Source: Acidobacteriota bacterium
GTDB lineage: Bacteria; Acidobacteriota; Vicinamibacteria; Vicinamibacterales; CAVVIG01
Assembly: GCA_040007095.1 (NCBI GenBank)
Contig: JBDTVS010000058.1
Location: 15,719 to 79,718 of the forward strand
Reading direction: 5' to 3'
DNA: 64,000 bases
The notes under the pieces are model-generated. The model had not been told where the DNA came from, searched no databases, and saw only the letters and a list, made by a program, of their open reading frames with translations. Shown here in pieces: positions 10,926 to 46,782 of the stretch; position 1 is the first letter of the stretch; each line of letters begins with the position of its first letter. Position numbers and translations under genes: made by a program.

Positions 10926-10997
10926 GCGCGGCGCTCGCAATGTTCGCTGGCGCGGCCTGCTTTCAGGCCATGTCGAGAGACGGCGAACTTCCGCGAG
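10926..10997 (+). repeat. F1 repeat family, truncated copy (right arm only)
   Basis: gcgcggcgctcgcaatgttcgc..gcggcctgctttcaggcc..cgaacttccgcgagg aligns with the right arm of the copy at 18831-19108. No left arm is present. Confidence 0.6.
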
Positions 10998-11756: not shown

Positions 11757-11857
11757 GTGAACTCGGAACTGTGAGATGCGAATTGTCTAAGAATCTCGCA
11801 GTCCTTCTGAGTTCTAACTTTTGAGTTTTGAGTTCGGCTGCGTTTTCCAGCAGCCGG
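11757..11857 (+). repeat. F2 repeat family copy a (AT-rich, hairpin plus T-rich tract)
   Basis: gtgaactcggaact..aagaatctcgcagtccttctgagttctaacttttgagttttgagttcggctgcgttttccagcagccgg is shared with 21153-21252 and 44289-44421. It lies between two convergent genes. Confidence 0.65.
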
Positions 11858-18685: not shown

Positions 18686-18830
18686 CGATAGCTGCGCTCA
18701 TCCGATCCTACCCGCGTTCCTTCAGTGGGCCGCCTGGTGATTGTGAGGGGCAGAATGTAACCACGGAAACACGAAGACTCGGAAACAGCGTGCGCTGTCT
18801 TGCTGGACGTAGGTCCGGCGCAGCGTATCG

Positions 18831-19108
18831 ATGCCGTTCGGAAATTCCACTACGGTTTTCGGCCTGAAACCAGGCCGCTCTGCGAACAGCTCGACGCCGG
18901 GGCCCCCGGCGCGGCAGCCGCGCTGGGGTGGGGCGCCGCGGGAACCCGCCGCTTCAGGACTTGTCGGTGGTATGCGGCAGGTCCGCGACCTGCCGCGGAT
19001 CCTGGCCTTGCGCGGCGGTTTCCCGTCTGTCGCGCGAGACGCGGCGCTCGCACCGTTCGCTTCGCGGCCTGCTTTCAGGCCGTCTCGAGAGACCGCGAAT
19101 TTCCGAGA
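18831..19108 (+). repeat. F1 repeat family, full copy A (long imperfect hairpin, variant subfamily)
   Basis: Termini atgccgttcggaaattc ... gaatttccgaga are inverted. The conserved core gcgaacagctcgacgcc / ggtttcccgtctgtcgcgcgag / gcggcgctcgcaccgttcgc is shared with copies B and C. It lies 145 bp upstream of the TamB-fusion gene start. Confidence 0.7.
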
Positions 19109-19314
19109 ATCGAGTCGTCATGCGCCGGGGCGCACCCCCCATAGCGTGAAAACGTGATCGCACACGAACGGAGTAGTGTCCGGCTTCAGCCGGACCCGGA
19201 CGTTTGCACCGTCATTTTCTGAACAGCCACACCGAATGCACCGAGGTAGAAATTTGGATTTTCCGGTGTTCTCGGTGATCTCCGTGGTTGACCTTGAAAC
19301 TTGTCGGGGTCAGG

Positions 19315-19683
19315 TCACTGATGGCGAGACGAGTCGGCCACGAGCATCGACAGGACGGTGCTGACGAAGCTCACGACCAGCGCGCCCCAGAAAGCGGCCC
19401 AGAAACCGCTGACGTGGAAGCCCAACCCGAGGCCTTCCGACAGCGAGCTGGTCAGCCACAGCATCAGGCCGTTGACGACCAGCGCGAAGATGCCGAGCGT
19501 GAGGATGATGAGCGGAAACGTCAACACCTTCGCGACGGGCCTGATGAAGGCATTGACCACGCCGAAGACGGCCGCCACCCCAAGAAACGGAAGCCAACCG
19601 CCGGCAAACGTGACACCTGGCACCACGTTCGTCGCGACCCACAGCGCCGCGGCGTTCACGAGCAATCGAACCACAAATGGCAT
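19315..19683 (-). CDS. Phage-holin-family / DUF360 (YvlD-like) small membrane protein
   Basis: 122 aa with four predicted TM helices. 'LLVNAAALWVA...VPG....GGW..FLGVAAVFGVVNAFIRP' matches the DUF360 pattern. Confidence 0.7.
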   Translation of the reverse strand: MPFVVRLLVNAAALWVATNVVPGVTFAGGWLPFLGVAAVFGVVNAFIRPVAKVLTFPLIILTLGIFALVVNGLMLWLTSSLSEGLGLGFHVSGFWAAFWGALVVSFVSTVLSMLVADSSRHQ

Positions 19684-19833
19684 GATGTGCGCCTTTCACC
19701 GGCACGACCCGCCGGCACCATCCGTCCGCCCCGCGAAGCCAGCTTACCCGTTGGAACGCATTGCAGAACTGAAATCCTGTGAACCACAAAGACACAAAGA
19801 ACAGGTCTCATTTCGCAATTTGCTCTTAGCTGG

Positions 19834-20739
19834 TTACGGCCGCGGACGATCGAGCGCGGTCCGATCCCAGCCGGCCAGCGTCGCCGCCACGTCGTAGCTG
19901 CTGCCGACAAACGTCAGGATGGCCTGCTCGGGCGAGGCGGCGGTCCTGACGGCATCGTACGGCAGGATGAACTCGCCGAGCTCGCGGTGATAGTACGCGC
20001 CCTGCGGCCCAACCGATGCCTCTTTGAAGCCCGGCGGCTCCGGAACGGCGTACGAATAGAACACCGGCTCGGGAAGCGGCCCGCCCCCCGGCCAGAATCC
20101 GTGGCTGATGACCTCGTGCGAATACGCCTCGCGCATGAACGCGGGGCCTTCGCGCGGCGGCGCCGGCTTGCCGGAGAAACGTGTCACCGCCAGATCGAAG
20201 GCGCCCCAGAAGAAATGGACCGGGCTGCTCTTCCCCACAAACGCGCACTGCGAGAGGGTGAACACGCGCGCGACCTGCGAGAAAATCCGCCAGCAGCGGT
20301 TCGCGTACACCGGATCGTATGCCGCGTGGGTCCTGTCCTGGTCGAATCGGATCGGCGAGGCGACCTCTACCGGCACCGGCCAGATCTTCACCGGCAGGCC
20401 CATCGCGGAGAGCGTCGACATCACCGCGGCGTAGAAATCGGCGACCGTCTGCGGCCGTAGCGCCAGCATCCGCGACTCGCCATCCGACGTCCGGATGACG
20501 AGCTGATGTGCGATGAAATCGAACTGGATGGTGAAGGAACGATGGCCGTGCGAAAGGGTCCGCGTGGACAACCCGGTGGGCGTGATTTGCAGCGCAATCG
20601 CCCAGGAATGATTGAGCGGCGGCGCCAGCGCGAGCGCCACCTTGCCGACCACCTGCGTCCACATGTGCACGGTCTCGCAGGTGTCCTGCCATGCCGCATA
20701 GGGCAGCGCCGGCCAGAGCTCTTCGGTCACACTCGTCAT
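19834..20739 (-). CDS. DUF5996 family protein
   Basis: 301 aa. The N-terminus 'WPALPYAAWQDTCETVHMWTQVVGKVALALAP' matches my memory of the DUF5996 signature. Confidence 0.7.
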   Translation of the reverse strand: MTSVTEELWPALPYAAWQDTCETVHMWTQVVGKVALALAPPLNHSWAIALQITPTGLSTRTLSHGHRSFTIQFDFIAHQLVIRTSDGESRMLALRPQTVADFYAAVMSTLSAMGLPVKIWPVPVEVASPIRFDQDRTHAAYDPVYANRCWRIFSQVARVFTLSQCAFVGKSSPVHFFWGAFDLAVTRFSGKPAPPREGPAFMREAYSHEVISHGFWPGGGPLPEPVFYSYAVPEPPGFKEASVGPQGAYYHRELGEFILPYDAVRTAASPEQAILTFVGSSYDVAATLAGWDRTALDRPRP

Positions 20740-20788
20740 TGGAATCGTCCTTTAGTCCTGCGCCCCGGTGTTTAGCCAGACGTTGGTC

Positions 20789-21025
20789 ATGCCTTTCGGA
20801 AATTCAAACGCGAGCATGACCGGAAAATGAGTCGCTCCGCGAACAGCTCGACGCCGCCGGAAACCGCTTCTCCGGGTCAGGTGTACAGAGGCGCAGCTCC
20901 GCGAGCTGCGCCGGACTCGGCCCTCCGTACGCGGTTTCCCGTCTGTCGCGCGAGGGCGCGGCGCTCGCAACGTTCGCTTCGCGACTCATTTTCCGGTCAT
21001 TTCCTCGTGGAGCGAATTTCCGAGA
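20789..21025 (+). repeat. F1 repeat family, full copy B
   Basis: atgcctttcggaaattc..catgaccggaaaatgagtcgc..[core]..gcgactcattttccggtcat..gaatttccgagag. The two arms are reverse complements, and the apex palindrome is ggcgcagctccgcgagctgcgcc. Confidence 0.75.
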
Positions 21026-21152
21026 GCGATAAATCGTTGGCGGGGCCTACGTTACCACGCCACTTTTCGAATCGAAACACGAGGGAACATGCCATGATCA
21101 CAGAAACGGGGCGTCCACATCGGCCCTTGTCTCGATTCACGACATGGTCTTC

Positions 21153-21252
21153 GTGAACTCAGAACTTTGAAGTAAGAATCCCCGAGCAATCTCGCGGTCG
21201 TTCTAAGTTCTGACTTTTGAATTTTCAGTTTGGCTGCGTTTTTCAGCAGCGG
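21153..21252 (+). repeat. F2 repeat family copy b
   Basis: gtgaactcagaacttt..gcaatctcgcggtcgttctaagttctgacttttgaattttcagtttggctgcgtttttcagcagcgg aligns with copies a and c. Confidence 0.65.
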
Positions 21253-21267
21253 TAAAGGATCTCCCCC

Positions 21268-21537
21268 ATGGAAAGTGCACCATGTCCTCATATCGCCTCG
21301 GTCGAAATCGTCAAACATCCCAAGAAACTGGAGTGCGTGGAGTGCGTCGCCATCGGCGCTGACTGGGTACATCTGCGCACCTGCCAGAGTTGCGGGGTGA
21401 CGCTCTGCTGTGATTCGTCGCCGAACCGCCACGCCAGCAAGCACGCGCGCAGCAGCAAGCATCCAGTGATCGCGTCCGCCCAGCCGGGCGAACGCTGGCT
21501 GTACTGCTACCCGGACGACCAGATGGCCGACTATTAG
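21268..21537 (+). CDS. UBP-type zinc-finger domain protein
   Basis: 89 aa. 'C.H......K...C.EC......WVHLR.C..CG...CCDSS.N.HA.KH...S.HPV' is the zf-UBP Cys/His pattern. Confidence 0.8.
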   Translation: MESAPCPHIASVEIVKHPKKLECVECVAIGADWVHLRTCQSCGVTLCCDSSPNRHASKHARSSKHPVIASAQPGERWLYCYPDDQMADY

Positions 21538-39388: not shown

Positions 39389-40467
39389 TGAACGGCGGCG
39401 TTTCAGCGTGGCAGCTGATCGGTGAGTGCGTTCGTGGCGCGTCCCACGTGCGGAACGTTTCGCCGAATCAGGATGCGATTGCGTGGCGAGTCGATTCGAC
39501 GACGAACCGTGCGGCCATCATGGCCGTGTCCGACGGTCACGGCAGCGCGAAGTGCTTTCGAAGCGATGCGGGGTCCAGGCTCGCCGTGAACGCGGCCCTT
39601 CGCATCCTGGAAAGTTTTGCATGCAATCCCGCGCCGGTGGATCTGACGGCAGTGGATGGTCAGGCGGCGGATGGTACCGCGGCGGATGCCAAGGCGAACG
39701 ATGGCATCGAAGCCGGGCGCAATGGGCCTGATGGGAACGGGGCCGCGCCCGATCGCCACTCCCGACTGGCTCAGAACATCGTCCTCGAATGGCAGAAGGA
39801 TGTCGACGCGGCGCTAGAGGAGCATCCGCTTTCAACCGAGGAGATGGAGTCGCTCGAGGCGCGAGAGGGCGCCGCGGCTCGTCAGGCCGTGGACCGCAAT
39901 CCTCGCCTGGCTTACGGCGCCACGCTGCTTGCCGCGGTGATTACCGATGCCTACATCCTCTACCTTCAGCTCGGCGACGGCGACATCGTCACCGTCTCGG
40001 ATACGGGGGCCGCGAGCCGGCCGCTCGAACACGATCAGCGGTTGTTCGCGAACGAGACGACGTCGCTCTGCGCCCGAGACGCCTGGCGCGAGATTCGCGT
40101 TCGCTGCGACGAACCGGCCGAACCGGCGCCCGCGTTGATCCTGCTGTCAACCGACGGCTACGCCAATTCCTTCAGAACCGATGCGGGATTTCTGGCGGTG
40201 GGATCGGATCTGCTCGAGATCATCCGCGCCGAAGGGCTCGACAGCGTCGGCGGTCATCTGGAGGGCTGGCTGACCGAGACGTCCCAGGGCGGCAGCGGCG
40301 ATGACATTACACTTGGCATTCTGTGCCGGATGGACGCGGTCGCGTCGTCCAGTAGGTCGTCCAGTAGGTCGTCCAGTAGGTCGTCCAGCAGGTCGTCCAG
40401 CAGATCGCCCGGCGACGACCCGGCGATCCCGCCCGGACCCGCGGACACAACCGAAGTGGCCCGTTGA
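39388..40467 (+). CDS. PP2C-family Ser/Thr protein phosphatase with a C-terminal (SSSR)5 tail
   Basis: Start chosen at MNGGVSAWQLIGECVRGASHVRN..NQDA. Motifs '..AVSDGHGS..' and '..LLSTDGY..' match PP2C metal-binding signatures. Confidence 0.85.
   Translation: MNGGVSAWQLIGECVRGASHVRNVSPNQDAIAWRVDSTTNRAAIMAVSDGHGSAKCFRSDAGSRLAVNAALRILESFACNPAPVDLTAVDGQAADGTAADAKANDGIEAGRNGPDGNGAAPDRHSRLAQNIVLEWQKDVDAALEEHPLSTEEMESLEAREGAAARQAVDRNPRLAYGATLLAAVITDAYILYLQLGDGDIVTVSDTGAASRPLEHDQRLFANETTSLCARDAWREIRVRCDEPAEPAPALILLSTDGYANSFRTDAGFLAVGSDLLEIIRAEGLDSVGGHLEGWLTETSQGGSGDDITLGILCRMDAVASSSRSSSRSSSRSSSRSSSRSPGDDPAIPPGPADTTEVAR
40344..40403. repeat. In-frame 12-bp tandem repeat x5 encoding (SSSR)5
   Basis: gtcgtccagtag x3 followed by gtcgtccagcag x2. 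Confidence 0.85.
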
Positions 40468-41786
40468 ACCAGATCCTCGAGACCAATCAGATCGTACGGA
40501 CCAGCCCTTCGGCCCTGCAGTGCCGGGTTCTGCGGCTGCTCGGGGGCGGCGGACAGGGCGAAGTCTATCTGGCCGATCTCCACGGCAAGCTGGTCGCCTT
40601 GAAGTGGTATCGGCCGATCGCGGCCACGCCACGGCAGCAGACCGGACTCGAAGAGCTCGTGAGGAAGGGGTCTCCAGACGAGCGGTTTCTCTGGCCGCTC
40701 GAGCTGGCGTTCGACCCCCAGACTCCCGGATTCGGGTACGTGATGCTGCTGCGCGAGCCGCGCTTCAAGAGCCTCTACGATCTGATGAAGTGCCGGATCG
40801 CGCCGAGCTTTCGCACGCTCGCCACGGTCGGCCTGTCGCTGTCGGACGCGTTCCTCCGCTTGCATTCCCAGGGCCTCTGCTACCGGGACATCAATTTCGG
40901 CAACGTGTTCTTCGATCCCGATACCGGCGAGGTTCTGATTTGCGATAACGACAACGTCGCGGTTGACGGAGAAGACGAGGGCGTGCTCGGCACGCCGCGT
41001 TTCATGGCGCCCGAGATCGTGCGCGGCGACGCCAGGCCGACGTCGCAATCCGATTTGTTCTCGCTGGCCGTGCTGCTCTTCTACATCTTCATGGTGCACC
41101 ACCCGCTCGAAGGTGCCCAGGAAGCGTCGATCAAGGCGCTCGATGCGCCGGCGATGAAGTGGCTGTACGGCACCAAGCCGGTATTCATCTTCGATCCCGT
41201 CGATCGATGCAATGCGCCGGTGCCCGGACTGCACGACAACGCGGTGATCTACTGGTCGATCTACCCGCAGTTTTTCCGCGACCTCTTCACCAAGGCGTTC
41301 ACCGACGGGATCCGTGATCCGCGCAACGGCAGGGTGCGCGAGAGTGAATGGCGCGCCACGATGGTCCGGCTGCGGGACTCGATCGTTTATTGTCCCGCCT
41401 GCAATGAGCAGAACTTCTACGACGGCGACGCGCTGAAAGCGTCCGGCGGCAAGGCACCAGCATGCTGGGCCTGTCAGAAGGAGGTTCGCCTGCCGCCGCG
41501 AATCCGGATCGGCAAGAGCACAATCGTGATGCTCAACCACGACACGCGCCTGTTCCCGCACCATGTGGACGACCGCTGCGGCTACGATTTCTCCGAGCCG
41601 ATCGCGGAGGTGGCGAAGCATCCGACCGACGCGCGGATCTGGGGGCTCAAGAACGTCTCGAAGACACAATGGACCGGCCAGATCGCCGACGGCACGACCA
41701 GGGATGTGCCGCCAGGACGCAGCGTAACGCTGGCGGCCGGGACACGGATCAATTTCGGTCAGCGAGAGGGCGAGATTCGGGTGTGA
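40464..41786 (+). CDS. Ser/Thr protein kinase with a C-terminal zinc ribbon and an FHA-like module
   Basis: 440 aa. The TTG start overlaps the PP2C stop. Gly-loop LGGGGQGEVY, VALK lysine, catalytic YRDINFGN, DND (DFG-equivalent), GTPRFMAPE. Then CPAC...CWAC, then a module containing ..AEVAKHPTDARIWGLKNVSKTQW......V.PGRSVTL..G..INFG. Confidence 0.9.
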   Translation: MNQILETNQIVRTSPSALQCRVLRLLGGGGQGEVYLADLHGKLVALKWYRPIAATPRQQTGLEELVRKGSPDERFLWPLELAFDPQTPGFGYVMLLREPRFKSLYDLMKCRIAPSFRTLATVGLSLSDAFLRLHSQGLCYRDINFGNVFFDPDTGEVLICDNDNVAVDGEDEGVLGTPRFMAPEIVRGDARPTSQSDLFSLAVLLFYIFMVHHPLEGAQEASIKALDAPAMKWLYGTKPVFIFDPVDRCNAPVPGLHDNAVIYWSIYPQFFRDLFTKAFTDGIRDPRNGRVRESEWRATMVRLRDSIVYCPACNEQNFYDGDALKASGGKAPACWACQKEVRLPPRIRIGKSTIVMLNHDTRLFPHHVDDRCGYDFSEPIAEVAKHPTDARIWGLKNVSKTQWTGQIADGTTRDVPPGRSVTLAAGTRINFGQREGEIRV

Positions 41787-41941
41787 GCCTGATGCCGTTG
41801 GGAAATTCCGTAACGGTTTGTGGCCTGAGACCAGGGCGCTCCAGGCAAGCGACGAGCAACGTGAGCAGGCGATAGACAGCGGACCAGAATGTTTATGTGA
41901 TTCGTTTCGGTTCCCACACCGAACGGTTTTGCGGATCAGCC

Positions 41942-43068: not shown

Positions 43069-43306
43069 ATGCCTTCCGGAAATTCAAGCGCGAGCATGAC
43101 CAAAAAATAAGTCGCTTTGCGAACAGCTCGGCGCCGCGGGAAACCGCTGCTCCGGGTTGTGGATACAGCAGGCGCAGCTCCGCGAGCTGCGCCGGACTTG
43201 GCCCTTCGTGCGCGCTTTCCCGTCTGTCGCAAGCGTCGCGGCGCTCGCAACGTTCGCTCTCGCGACCCATTTTCCGGTCATTTCGTCAGTGCAGTAATTT
43301 CCGAAA
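43069..43306 (+). repeat. F1 repeat family, full copy C
   Basis: atgccttccggaaattc..catgaccaaaaaataagtcgc..[core, apex ggcgcagctccgcgagctgcgcc]..gcgacccattttccggtcat..aatttccgaaa. It lies 213 bp upstream of cpsB. Confidence 0.75.
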
Positions 43307-43518
43307 GGCCTGCTCATTATCACCGCGTTCGGCCACTTCGCTGTGCGCCTGGCCTGAATCGGCAGCAGCGCGGGCTGGACATCGTATGCTGTACGAGTGC
43401 CAGCACAGAGCAGGAACACCACTTTGCGCGACGCTCTCAAGGTTCGGTCCGCGGTCGATTTTCGGCCAGTGTGTCCAAAGGAATCTAACAAAGCCTCATA
43501 GGTACGGGAAGGATTGAG

Positions 43519-44288: not shown

Positions 44289-44421
44289 GTGAAGAATGAG
44301 CTTTGATCCAGAGGTCGCAAAGAACTCCTCCTGTTCTTGCGTTCTCCAGCAATCTTGCAGCTTTCTAACTTCTGCCTTCTGAGTTTTGAGTTTCAGTTCG
44401 GCGGCGTCTTTTCAGCAGCCG
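44289..44421 (+). repeat. F2 repeat family copy c
   Basis: ..gcaatcttgcagctttctaacttctgccttctgagttttgagtttcagttcggcggcgtcttttcagcagccg aligns with copies a and b. It lies between convergent genes. Confidence 0.6.
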
Positions 44422-45834: not shown

Positions 45835-46782
45835 ATGAACTACTTGCTCGACGACGTGGCCAAGATCCTGGCGAAACCGGCGCTGCCGCGGCGGGAGACG
45901 TTCCGTCTCCTTGGTGGCGTACTGGCGGCAGCCTTTGCGAGCCGCTTCGGCATTCAGCCCGTCGCTGCGACGGGATACGGATGCTCGCACCAGCAAACGG
46001 CGGCAGGGATGTTCGATTGCGGAATTGGCAGCGCCCATCAGGCCTGCTGTCCGCCTGGGACGTGCTGTGCGTCCCATGGCAATGTGGCGACGTGCTGCCC
46101 CAGGGGTTCGTGCATCTGCGGCAACGGGTTGTGCGGGTCGTCGACCGGAGGGAATTGTCCGAGCGGGTGCAGCCGCTGTGAAGAAGGTCATCACGACGAT
46201 CAGGATCATTCCGGCGATCATCAGGACGATCACCAGAACGATCCTCACGACAACCATCAGAACGATCCGCACGATAATCACCAGAACGATCCTCACAACA
46301 ACCAACAGAACAATCAACAAAACAACCAGCAGAACAATTCGCACAACAACCAGCAGAACGACCCTCGCAACAACCAACAAAACGATTCTCACAACAGTCA
46401 ACAGAACACTCAGCAGAGTGATCCTCACGACAACCACCCGGATCTGCACCAGGAGCCATCCAAGGACGTCCGCAAGGATGCGCCGAGCGACCTGCACCAA
46501 GATCCGCCCAAGGATGTCCGTCAGGACTCCTACAAGGATGTCCGCAAGGATTCACCCAACGACGTACGCAAGGATCCGCCAAAGGATGTGACATCCAACG
46601 ATCTGCACAAGGATCCGCCTAAGGATGCGCGCCAGGACCCCTACAAGGATCTCCGCAAGGATTCATTCAGCGACAGGCGCAAGGACTCACCCAAGGATGC
46701 GCACCAGGATTCATCCAAGAATGTTCGCAAAGATGCGCCCAAGGACGGCAACGACCACAAGGATGATCAAGGGCGTCATTAG
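45835..46782 (+). CDS. Probable Tat-exported Cys-rich protein with an extreme His/Asp/Asn/Gln and KD-rich repetitive tail
   Basis: 315 aa. 'PRRETFRLLGGVLAAAFA' is Tat-signal-like. A 17-Cys module follows (..CCPPGTCCASHGNVATCCPRGSCICGNGLCG..CPSGCSRC). Then DNHQNDPH-type and KDVRKD(S/P)P-type repeats. Confidence 0.6.
   Translation: MNYLLDDVAKILAKPALPRRETFRLLGGVLAAAFASRFGIQPVAATGYGCSHQQTAAGMFDCGIGSAHQACCPPGTCCASHGNVATCCPRGSCICGNGLCGSSTGGNCPSGCSRCEEGHHDDQDHSGDHQDDHQNDPHDNHQNDPHDNHQNDPHNNQQNNQQNNQQNNSHNNQQNDPRNNQQNDSHNSQQNTQQSDPHDNHPDLHQEPSKDVRKDAPSDLHQDPPKDVRQDSYKDVRKDSPNDVRKDPPKDVTSNDLHKDPPKDARQDPYKDLRKDSFSDRRKDSPKDAHQDSSKNVRKDAPKDGNDHKDDQGRH
46190..46760. repeat. Degenerate in-frame coding tandem repeats (~24-bp units) within the low-complexity protein gene
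   Basis: caccagaacgatcctcacgacaac-type units come first, then aaggatgtccgcaaggattcaccc-type units. The region is visibly AT-richer than its surroundings. Confidence 0.7.

What the first reader, a model, noticed from the sequence alone, without database searches (positions are those of the whole stretch)
18831..19108. Compensatory substitutions between F1 subfamilies preserve the hairpins
Copies B and C have the apex palindrome ggcgcagCTccgcgAGctgcgcc. Copy A has gcggcagGTccgcgACctgccgc, so both halves changed together. The sub-terminal arms differ in the same way. B and C use catgaccggaaaatgagtcgc paired with gcgactcattttccggtcat. A, and the fragment at 10926, use cggcctgaaaccaggccgc paired with gcggcctgctttcaggccg; each of these also forms its own local ggcctg/caggcc hairpin. 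The flanking core stays conserved throughout. Paired changes argue that the structure, not only the sequence, is under selection.
Basis: seen in the sequence. Interest (0 to 1): 0.6.

Follow-up and report, generated by a model that had tools for sequence, protein, structure and literature searches.

The report
Mobile hairpin repeat with covarying stems
The repeats are copies of a small non-coding mobile hairpin element of soil Acidobacteria (order Vicinamibacterales); its stems have kept their base pairing through well over a hundred matched double mutations around a nearly fixed core, so the fold itself is being preserved, although what it does is still unknown.

Summary
Copies A, B and C carry the quoted apex and arm sequences. 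One detail is off: copy C's arms are not identical to B's and hold four A·C mismatches.

The paired changes are not just two clonal lineages. I collected 59 distinct copies, 13 from this genome and 46 from about 20 other Vicinamibacterales MAGs.
- 38 of 60 stem pairs change on both sides.
- 88.9% of cells pair, against 75.2% after shuffling (0/500).
- A tree needs at least 146 switches from one Watson-Crick pair to another.
- The apex stem has 19 versions, and 12 of them pair perfectly.

A covariance model finds the element in 29 of 151 genomes of the order (13 of 19 families). It finds none in about 140 other Acidobacteriota.

The element is MITE-like: terminal inverted repeats, target duplications, insertion into REP hairpin loops, no coding capacity and no fixed neighbouring gene. 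Unusually, the ~145-nt asymmetric core is conserved while the outer arms and termini differ between lineages.

The window's minus strand folds better, and stem mismatches tend to keep G on that strand. This points to a single-stranded form (RNA or ssDNA) of that strand. No Rfam family matches. An earlier follow-up in this scan had already called the family a MITE.

The parts
18831..19112 (+). Copy A, full length (the finding). TIR ATGCCGTTCGGAAATTC at 18831; 5' arm 18861-18879; apex stem-loop 18975-18997; 3' arm 19064-19082; degenerate right TIR GAATTTCCGAGAATCG.
   Evidence: fold -175.9 kcal/mol, z -7.2; R1 122 bits
18895..18937 (+). Nested ~40-nt small palindromic repeat (REP-2 type, CCCC..GCGCGG-CAG-CCGCGC..GGGG) inside copy A. 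The same insert at the same site occurs in two other copies of the genome, which have the other arm and apex types.
   Evidence: 21 dispersed copies of CCCCAACGCGG..CCGCGTTGGGG in the genome
20789..21030 (+). Copy B, full length, with perfectly paired 20-bp sub-terminal arms.
   Evidence: z -7.6; 180 bits
43069..43312 (+). Copy C, full length. The arms carry four A·C mismatches on this strand (G·U on the other strand).
   Evidence: 180 bits
10927..11001 (+). 3' fragment: right part of the core, A-type 3' arm and right TIR.
41792..41842 (+).
19173..19195 (+). GTAG-tagged REP hairpin GTAGTGTCCGGCTTCAGCCGGAC, the repeat family whose loop is the insertion site of several copies elsewhere in the genome.
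   Evidence: 53 core copies in the genome

Best explanation
F1 is a non-autonomous mobile element (MITE-like, about 245 nt) of the order Vicinamibacterales, and the whole element folds back on itself.

Anatomy:
- The outer ~17 nt are transposon ends.
- Inside them lies a variable but always complementary arm (P1, about 19 bp).
- Inside that lies a ~145-nt asymmetric core: helices P2-P6 with conserved bulges and loops, namely GTCTGTCGC, GGACTCGGCCCT, TGTGTACAG and the apex loop CCGYG.

What is preserved is the fold of one strand in single-stranded form (RNA or ssDNA), probably the window's minus strand. The helices serve as scaffolding, so their sequence drifts while pairing is restored. The conserved unpaired motifs are the likely contact sites for a protein.

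The constraint appears to act mainly on the lineages of copies that go on propagating. Single inserted copies also decay.

Shown: mobility signatures, conservation across the order, abundant independent compensation, strand asymmetry.
Inferred: that the folded strand is needed for the element's own propagation or persistence; whether the strand is RNA or DNA; the identity of the partner protein.
For: Mobile element:
- The own genome holds 14 full copies and about 18 fragments.
- The 17-nt TIRs are ATGCCKTTCGGAAATTC / GAATTTCCGAAAGGCAT.
- Direct repeats flank the copies. GGCTGAAGCC flanks copies that split the REP hairpin GTCCGGCTGAAGCCGGAC. GGTCTAGCC flanks L089. CTAA flanks 4 of 4 copies that have TTCGACTTTGTCAGATC ends.
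- All copies are intergenic, next to unrelated genes.

Structure maintained:
- 88.9% of cells paired against 75.2% shuffled (0/500); 38 of 60 pairs with double changes; covariation score 0.315 against 0.110; slid controls 36-40% paired.
- at least 146 pair switches on the tree.
- 12 different perfectly paired apex stems.
- in 100 copies, 91.4% paired against 66.6% shuffled.
- 110 Watson-Crick-preserving double changes at the tips, against about 9 expected.

Core constraint: among 7 copies of one subgroup, P1 differs by 22% but the core stems by only 0.9%.

Distribution: 29 of 151 genomes of the order, in 13 of 19 families, with 1-16 copies each. None in about 140 Acidobacteriota genomes outside the order.

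One strand matters:
- A·C mismatches outnumber G·U, 114 to 58 cells overall and 81 to 17 in P1.
- Stem changes lose G on the plus strand 116 times and C 49 times.
- The minus-strand RNA fold is more stable in 47 of 59 and in 82 of 99 copies.

Single copies decay: P1 averages 3.6 mismatches in 19 pairs.
Against: - No autonomous insertion sequence with the same ends was found in this genome. Searches found none, but the assembly is a 243-contig MAG.
- No partner protein was identified, either next to the copies or as a Y1 transposase.
- The same core sits between at least two or three unrelated kinds of ends. That is odd if the core serves one transposase.
- Most compensated differences are transversion-type, 308 against 117 cells, with few wobble intermediates. 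This fits one-step DNA-level correction as well as selection does.
- Orientation relative to flanking genes shows no clear bias: 21 against 15 in co-directional contexts.
- The strand-asymmetry counts are not phylogenetically independent.
Confidence: 0.55

Rival explanations
1. The core is a structured non-coding RNA (or cis-acting RNA module) with a function of its own for the cell. It has repeatedly been picked up or flanked by different inverted-repeat ends. The covariation then reflects ordinary RNA-level purifying selection on every copy.
For: - The core is conserved across 13 families of an order, with helices that covary and loops that do not.
- Core stems evolve far more slowly than P1, even among paralogues within one genome.
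- The same core occurs with different termini.
- A diverged type II paralogue with the same architecture exists.
- One strand folds better than the other.
Against: - No Rfam match at gathering or at E<=10.
- No promoter or terminator is evident.
- No orientation bias relative to genes.
- Patchy presence (29 of 151 genomes) and copy numbers from 1 to 16 fit a mobile element better than an essential RNA.
- Many copies are truncated or carry several stem mismatches.
Confidence: 0.2
2. There is no selection on the fold. The arms stay complementary because DNA hairpins formed during replication or repair template their own correction (quasipalindrome template switching, or arm-to-arm gene conversion).
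For: - Double changes are mostly transversion-type, and wobble intermediates are scarce.
- Modules (arm type, apex type, nested insert) are reassorted among copies, so recombination between copies occurs.
Against: - Such correction should erase asymmetry. Yet bulges and internal loops (GTCTGTCGC, GGACTCGGCCCT against TGTGTACAG) are conserved across the order.
- Individual copies do carry uncorrected mismatches.
- The strand bias in mismatch types and the better fold of one strand are not expected from symmetric correction.
Confidence: 0.14
3. The element is simply a left end joined to a right end of a transposon with long, multi-site ends. The arms match because both ends must bind the same transposase, not because they pair.
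For: - A GGAAA / TTTCC motif recurs three times on each arm: in the TIR (CGGAAAT), in P1 (CCGGAAAA or CCAGAAAC) and in P4 (GGGAAACC).
- TIRs and target duplications are present.
Against: - The positions that covary (P1 outside the motif, the P6 apex stem, the P4 extension) are exactly those that are not conserved. A protein site would be conserved rather than swapped on both sides.
- Pairing collapses when the partner is slid by one column.
- Strand asymmetry is seen.
Confidence: 0.1
4. The paired differences are only two clonal subfamilies that happen to differ.
For: Within the window alone, only two apex types and two arm types are visible.
Against: - 19 apex haplotypes and 58 P1 haplotypes.
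- At least 146 pair switches on the tree.
- All four combinations of the two variable apex features exist.
Confidence: 0.01

Closest known systems
REPINs (REP doublets forming hairpins, mobilised by RAYT tyrosine transposases; Bertels & Rainey 2011, PMC3116915)
   Same: - Short non-coding interspersed elements that fold into one long hairpin.
[quoted passage not shown]
- A single-stranded intermediate is proposed.
   Different: - REPINs have conserved ends (the two REPs) and a variable middle. F1 has a conserved middle and variable ends.
- F1 has target duplications and no GTAG tag at its ends.
- This genome shows no Y1/RAYT gene.
- F1 is roughly twice as long.
ERIC / IRU elements of Enterobacteriaceae and Vibrio (own knowledge: Hulton 1991; Wilson & Sharp 2006)
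   Same: - An imperfect palindrome of 100-250 nt, intergenic and conserved across genera.
- Longer variants arise through insertions at fixed internal sites, as with the nested REP-2 insert in copy A.
   Different: - No sequence relationship.
- A different phylum.
- F1 has clear TIRs and target duplications, and a strongly asymmetric conserved core.
Bacterial MITEs such as Correia/NEMIS of Neisseria, RUP, and MITEs derived from IS4/IS5-type insertion sequences
   Same: - Small size, TIRs, target duplications.
- Many dispersed intergenic copies and no coding capacity.
- They fold as hairpins when transcribed.
   Different: - In ordinary MITE families the ends are the conserved part and the interior is free.
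- Here the interior is conserved across an order and occurs with different ends and different duplication lengths (9-10 bp against CTAA).
- No parent IS was found here.
IS elements that target REP hairpins (IS1397, ISKpn1, ISPpu9/10; own knowledge: Wilde 2003, Tobes & Pareja 2006)
   Same: Several F1 copies sit exactly in the loop of the REP hairpin GTCCGGC-TGAA-GCCGGAC.
   Different: Those are autonomous insertion sequences. F1 is non-coding, and not all of its copies are in REPs.
Integron attC sites
   Same: Imperfect palindromes whose structure rather than sequence is conserved. They act as folded single strands, and one strand is preferred.
   Different: - attC sites have conserved outer boxes and a variable centre, the reverse of F1.
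- They lie in cassette arrays next to an integrase.
- One F1 subgroup lacks the AAC..GTT boxes, and no arrays or integrase were seen.

Membership tests
MITE (non-autonomous DDE-type transposable element) | Small, non-coding, many dispersed copies | tested here: met
   - About 245 nt long.
- 14 full copies and about 18 fragments in the genome.
- No conserved ORF.
- Intergenic.
MITE (non-autonomous DDE-type transposable element) | Terminal inverted repeats | tested here: met
   - ATGCCKTTCGGAAATTC / GAATTTCCGAAAGGCAT in the own genome.
- TTCGACTTTGTCAGATC in other lineages.
MITE (non-autonomous DDE-type transposable element) | Target-site duplications | tested here: met
   - CTAA on both sides in L049, L051, L059 and L082.
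- GGTCTAGCC in L089.
- GGCTGAAGCC in C155 and GGCTGAAGC in C157.
- The length is ambiguous (4 to 10 bp) where the target is itself a palindrome.
- Older copies have decayed flanks.
MITE (non-autonomous DDE-type transposable element) | A cognate autonomous IS with the same ends | tested here: inconclusive
   - No TIR pair encloses a transposase in the own genome.
- DDE_Tnp_1 genes exist elsewhere in the genome, but their ends were not matched.
- The assembly is fragmented.
- Relatives were not searched for this.
MITE (non-autonomous DDE-type transposable element) | Filled versus empty sites between strains | not tested
   No closely related genomes with orthologous loci were compared.
REPIN / REP-RAYT system | Two inverted GTAG-tagged REPs as the conserved ends | tested here: not met
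   The F1 ends carry no GTAG tag. The GTAG-tagged REP of this genome is a separate 23-nt element.
REPIN / REP-RAYT system | A RAYT (Y1 transposase) gene in the genome | tested here: not met
   - PF01797 gave 0 candidates in G000.
- 6 of the 29 genomes holding the element lack it.
- Its frequency is the same with or without the element.
REPIN / REP-RAYT system | Long hairpin with compensatory changes | tested here: met
   compare PMC3116915.
Described structured RNA family (Rfam) | Match to a curated covariance model | tested here: not met
   - 0 matches at gathering score over the window.
- Only chance-level hits at E<=10 over 18700-21300.
Structured non-coding RNA (generic) | Covariation-supported conserved secondary structure | tested here: met
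   60-pair structure.
Structured non-coding RNA (generic) | Transcribed as a discrete RNA from a defined strand | not testable with these tools
- Indirect evidence only: the minus strand folds better.
- No orientation bias relative to genes.
Integron attC site | Cassette array, neighbouring integrase, conserved R''/R' boxes with a variable centre | tested here: not met
   - Neighbours are large housekeeping genes.
- No recurrent neighbouring protein.
- The centre is conserved and the outside varies.

The most novel reading that the evidence does not exclude
The ~145-nt core is an autonomous functional nucleic-acid module: a structured RNA or folded ssDNA that binds or guides a still unknown protein. 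It has been carried through the Vicinamibacterales on several unrelated kinds of transposon ends, and in some genomes it works as an obligate convergent pair with a diverged type II paralogue. That would make it a new class of structured mobile non-coding element rather than an ordinary deletion derivative of an insertion sequence.
Probability: 0.25. Interest if true: 0.75.

Novelty: new variant of a known kind. Interest (0 to 1): 0.5.

Why it matters
Vicinamibacterales (Acidobacteria subgroup 6) are among the most abundant soil bacteria and are almost unstudied genetically. This element gives a 188-position, 60-base-pair model backed by covariation, with about 100 known members and no counterpart in Rfam.

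It also reverses the usual MITE logic: the ends are interchangeable and the interior is fixed. If the fold proves necessary for mobility, it would be a clean natural case of selection on a single-stranded transposition or RNA intermediate. If the core has its own function, it is a new structured RNA or DNA class.

In practical terms, the model can be used to annotate these repeats, to flag assembly breakpoints in soil MAGs, and as a lineage marker for the order.

Tried and rejected
- **Rfam.** Searches at gathering score and at E<=10 found nothing real.
- **Gene-specific cis-regulator.** Rejected. Neighbours are unrelated: a TamB-Omp85 fusion, DUF5996, TPR, holin, zf-UBP and CpsB. No protein family recurs next to 102 copies. 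It does not hold for the family, where convergent contexts number 26 and divergent 10.
- **Autonomous parent IS.** None found. 'End-only' fragments have no transposase beside them. A whole-genome TIR scan found only the known copies, one new fragment and weak chance-like hits. A candidate TIR pair 3.6 kb apart on C157 encloses an amidohydrolase and a GXGXG protein, not a transposase.
- **RAYT/Y1 partner.** Rejected.
- **Integron attC and IS200/IS605-type elements.** Considered and rejected on anatomy.
- **G·U versus A·C wobble test for the folded strand.** It gives a clear bias in P1 but not in the core helices. Transversions show the same G-loss bias. It is therefore suggestive rather than decisive.

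Full report
**What is there**

The window (G000:C58:15719-79718, 63% G+C) holds three full copies of a ~245-nt repeat:
- A at 18831-19112
- B at 20789-21030
- C at 43069-43312

The one correction is that copy C's sub-terminal arms are not those of B. They carry four A·C mismatches.

Each copy folds as one long imperfect hairpin, far more stable than shuffled sequence (z -7.2, -7.6, -3.9).

**Collecting the family**

nhmmer on the whole genome (8.56 Mb, 243 contigs) finds 14 full-length copies and about 18 fragments.

The core is also 75-89% identical in other genera. A pattern scan of one genome per species returned 39 loci. All are from Acidobacteriota MAGs labelled Vicinamibacterales, Vicinamibacteria or Gp6.

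From these I aligned 59 distinct copies with MAFFT, which takes no account of structure (A2). Thirteen come from this genome and 46 from about 20 other MAGs.

A covariance model built on that alignment (R1, 188 positions, 60 pairs) gave these results:
- It finds the element in 29 of 151 sampled genomes of the order, in 13 of 19 families and 24 of 80 genera, with 1-16 copies each.
- In a sample of the phylum it finds matches only in genomes of the same order, and none in about 140 others.

No Rfam family matches.

**Anatomy**

From the outside in, the element consists of:
- A 17-nt terminal inverted repeat.
- A short spacer helix.
- P1, the 'sub-terminal arm' of about 19 bp.
- P2 (GCGAAC/GTTCGC, or GCGYCCCC/GGGGNCGC in one subgroup).
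- P3 (CGSCGCG/CGCGSCG).
- A conserved 3'-side bulge, GTCTGTCGC plus about 8 nt.
- P4 (GGGAAACCGC/GCGGTTTCCC plus a variable 3-bp extension).
- An asymmetric internal loop (5' TGKGYACAG, 3' GGACTCGGCCCT) with a short P5.
- The apex stem-loop P6, with loop CCGYG.

This comes from the consensus of the individual minimum-energy folds and from RNAalifold.

**Test of the claim**

On A2, with the structure given by hand:
- 88.9% of cells form standard pairs, against 75.2 ± 0.4% after shuffling partners (0 of 500 shuffles reach it).
- 38 of 60 pairs show changes on both sides (shuffled 28.8 ± 1.9).
- The covariation score is 0.315 against 0.110.
- Sliding the 3' partner by 1-3 columns drops pairing to 36-40%.

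RNAalifold on its own found 25 of 38 predicted pairs with double changes.

The apex stem exists in 19 versions, 12 of them perfectly paired. A version's own arms mismatch 0.68 times on average, against 2.81 when arms are exchanged between versions.

I built a maximum-likelihood tree from all columns, which is conservative. On it, the fewest switches from one Watson-Crick pair to a different one sum to 146: P1 102, P6 23, P4 13, P2 4, P3 3, P5 1.

Against the consensus of its three nearest relatives, a copy shows in total:
- 200 one-sided changes.
- 110 double changes that keep a Watson-Crick pair, where about 9 are expected by chance.
- 26 double changes that do not keep one.

On 100 unique copies aligned to the model, 91.4% of cells pair against 66.6% shuffled. 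That alignment leans towards the structure.

**What kind of element**

It is mobile and non-coding.
- Several copies split the loop of a separate GTAG-tagged REP hairpin (GTAGTGTCCGGCTTCAGCCGGAC, 53 core copies in the genome). They are flanked by direct repeats of it: GGCTGAAGCC in C155 and GGCTGAAGC in C157.
- L089 is flanked by GGTCTAGCC.
- In other genomes, copies with the ends TTCGACTTTGTCAGATC are flanked by CTAA in four of four cases.
- The neighbours are unrelated genes.
- Contexts between convergent genes are commonest (26, against 10 divergent). Orientation relative to co-directional genes is 21 against 15.
- No transposase with matching ends was found in this fragmented assembly. The genome has no Y1/RAYT gene.

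An earlier follow-up of this scan (e1-3228697) had already called the family a MITE and named IS4 as the closest parent. I agree with 'MITE-like', but I could not confirm the IS4 link.

**What is unusual**

1. The interior, not the ends, is the conserved part. In one subgroup of seven copies, P1 differs by 22% while the core stems differ by 0.9%. The same core is found between at least two or three unrelated kinds of outer arms and termini, with different duplication lengths.
2. Modules reassort. In this genome the arm type, the apex type and a ~40-nt insert occur in different combinations. The insert in copy A is a nested member of a second small palindromic repeat family, CCCCAACGCGG..CCGCGTTGGGG, with 21 copies. 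Its arms again differ from the dispersed family by matched changes.
3. In several MAGs a copy is paired with a diverged 'type II' paralogue of the same architecture. The pair is always 3' end to 3' end, mostly 20-55 nt apart, in ten of ten cases.

**Which molecule folds**

The two strands are not equivalent.
- On the strand as aligned (window plus), A·C mismatches outnumber G·U by 114 to 58, and by 81 to 17 in P1.
- Private stem changes lose G 116 times and C 49 times. So mismatches keep a G on the minus strand (G·U, G·A, G·G), and these are the least destabilising kinds.
- The minus strand gives the more stable RNA fold in 47 of 59 and in 82 of 99 copies, by 5-6 kcal/mol on average.

These counts are not phylogenetically independent, and the core helices alone show no bias. 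The result is therefore suggestive. It argues for a single-stranded form of the minus strand, RNA or ssDNA. It argues against a purely double-stranded, symmetric reading.

**How the pairing is kept**

Two processes fit, and they may act together. One is selection on lineages of copies that keep propagating. The other is hairpin-templated correction in DNA.

In favour of a role for correction: double changes are mostly transversion-type (308 against 117 cells), and wobble intermediates are few.

Against correction as the whole story:
- The conserved asymmetric bulges and loops would be erased by it.
- Single copies carry uncorrected mismatches.
- The strand bias is not expected from it.

Compensatory changes in hairpin-forming mobile repeats are known from REPINs (PMC3116915), so the phenomenon as such is not new.

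**Verdict**

- The element is a new, order-wide family of mobile hairpin repeats with an unusually conserved asymmetric core.
- Its function and its partner protein remain unknown.

Noticed in passing
window 41792-41842: A fifth F1 piece: the left TIR and an A-like 5' arm only, just after the stop of the kinase-like gene at 40464-41786 and 1.2 kb upstream of copy C.
   Followed up: partly
window 19173-19195, and 53 sites genome-wide: A GTAG-tagged REP hairpin family (GTAGTGTCCGGCTTCAGCCGGAC) serves as an insertion target for F1. Yet PF01797 (Y1/RAYT transposase) gives no hit at all in this 94%-complete genome.
   Followed up: partly
window 18895-18937; G000:C90:133391-133430; G000:C200:33287-33317; 21 dispersed sites: A second small palindromic repeat family (CCCCAACGCGG-N-CCGCGTTGGGG). 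A variant of it is nested at the same internal site in three F1 copies that otherwise belong to different arm and apex types. This implies recombination between copies or repeated insertion.
   Followed up: partly
L072:3631-4028, L088:3826-4218, L056:6147-6558, L068:5749-6169, L086:1938-2342, L111:1254-1696, L090:400-876, L079:6921-7395: In other Vicinamibacterales MAGs a type I copy is paired with a diverged type II paralogue (GGAAAAACGG / CCGTTTTACC instead of GGGAAACCGC / GCGGTTTCCC). The two always converge and usually lie 20-55 nt apart. Some type II copies carry a ~70-nt apex expansion.
   Followed up: partly
window 10927-43312; CAVOIY010000002.1 537-570 kb; CAWEDP010000002.1 1706-1729 kb: Copies cluster regionally: five pieces within 33 kb here, out of about 32 in 8.6 Mb; six within 33 kb and three within 23 kb in two other MAGs. 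This suggests local hopping or a preferred chromosomal region.
   Followed up: no
window 11805-11834, 21201-21230, 44363-44392: An AT-rich repeat (TTCTGAGTTCTAACTTTTGAGTTTTGAGTT) lies 0.2-1.1 kb to the right of three F1 pieces. I did not examine it here.
   Followed up: no
window 46191-46771: Degenerate 12/24-nt tandem repeats inside the ORF at 45835-46782 encode a His/Asp/Asn/Gln-rich tail.
   Followed up: no
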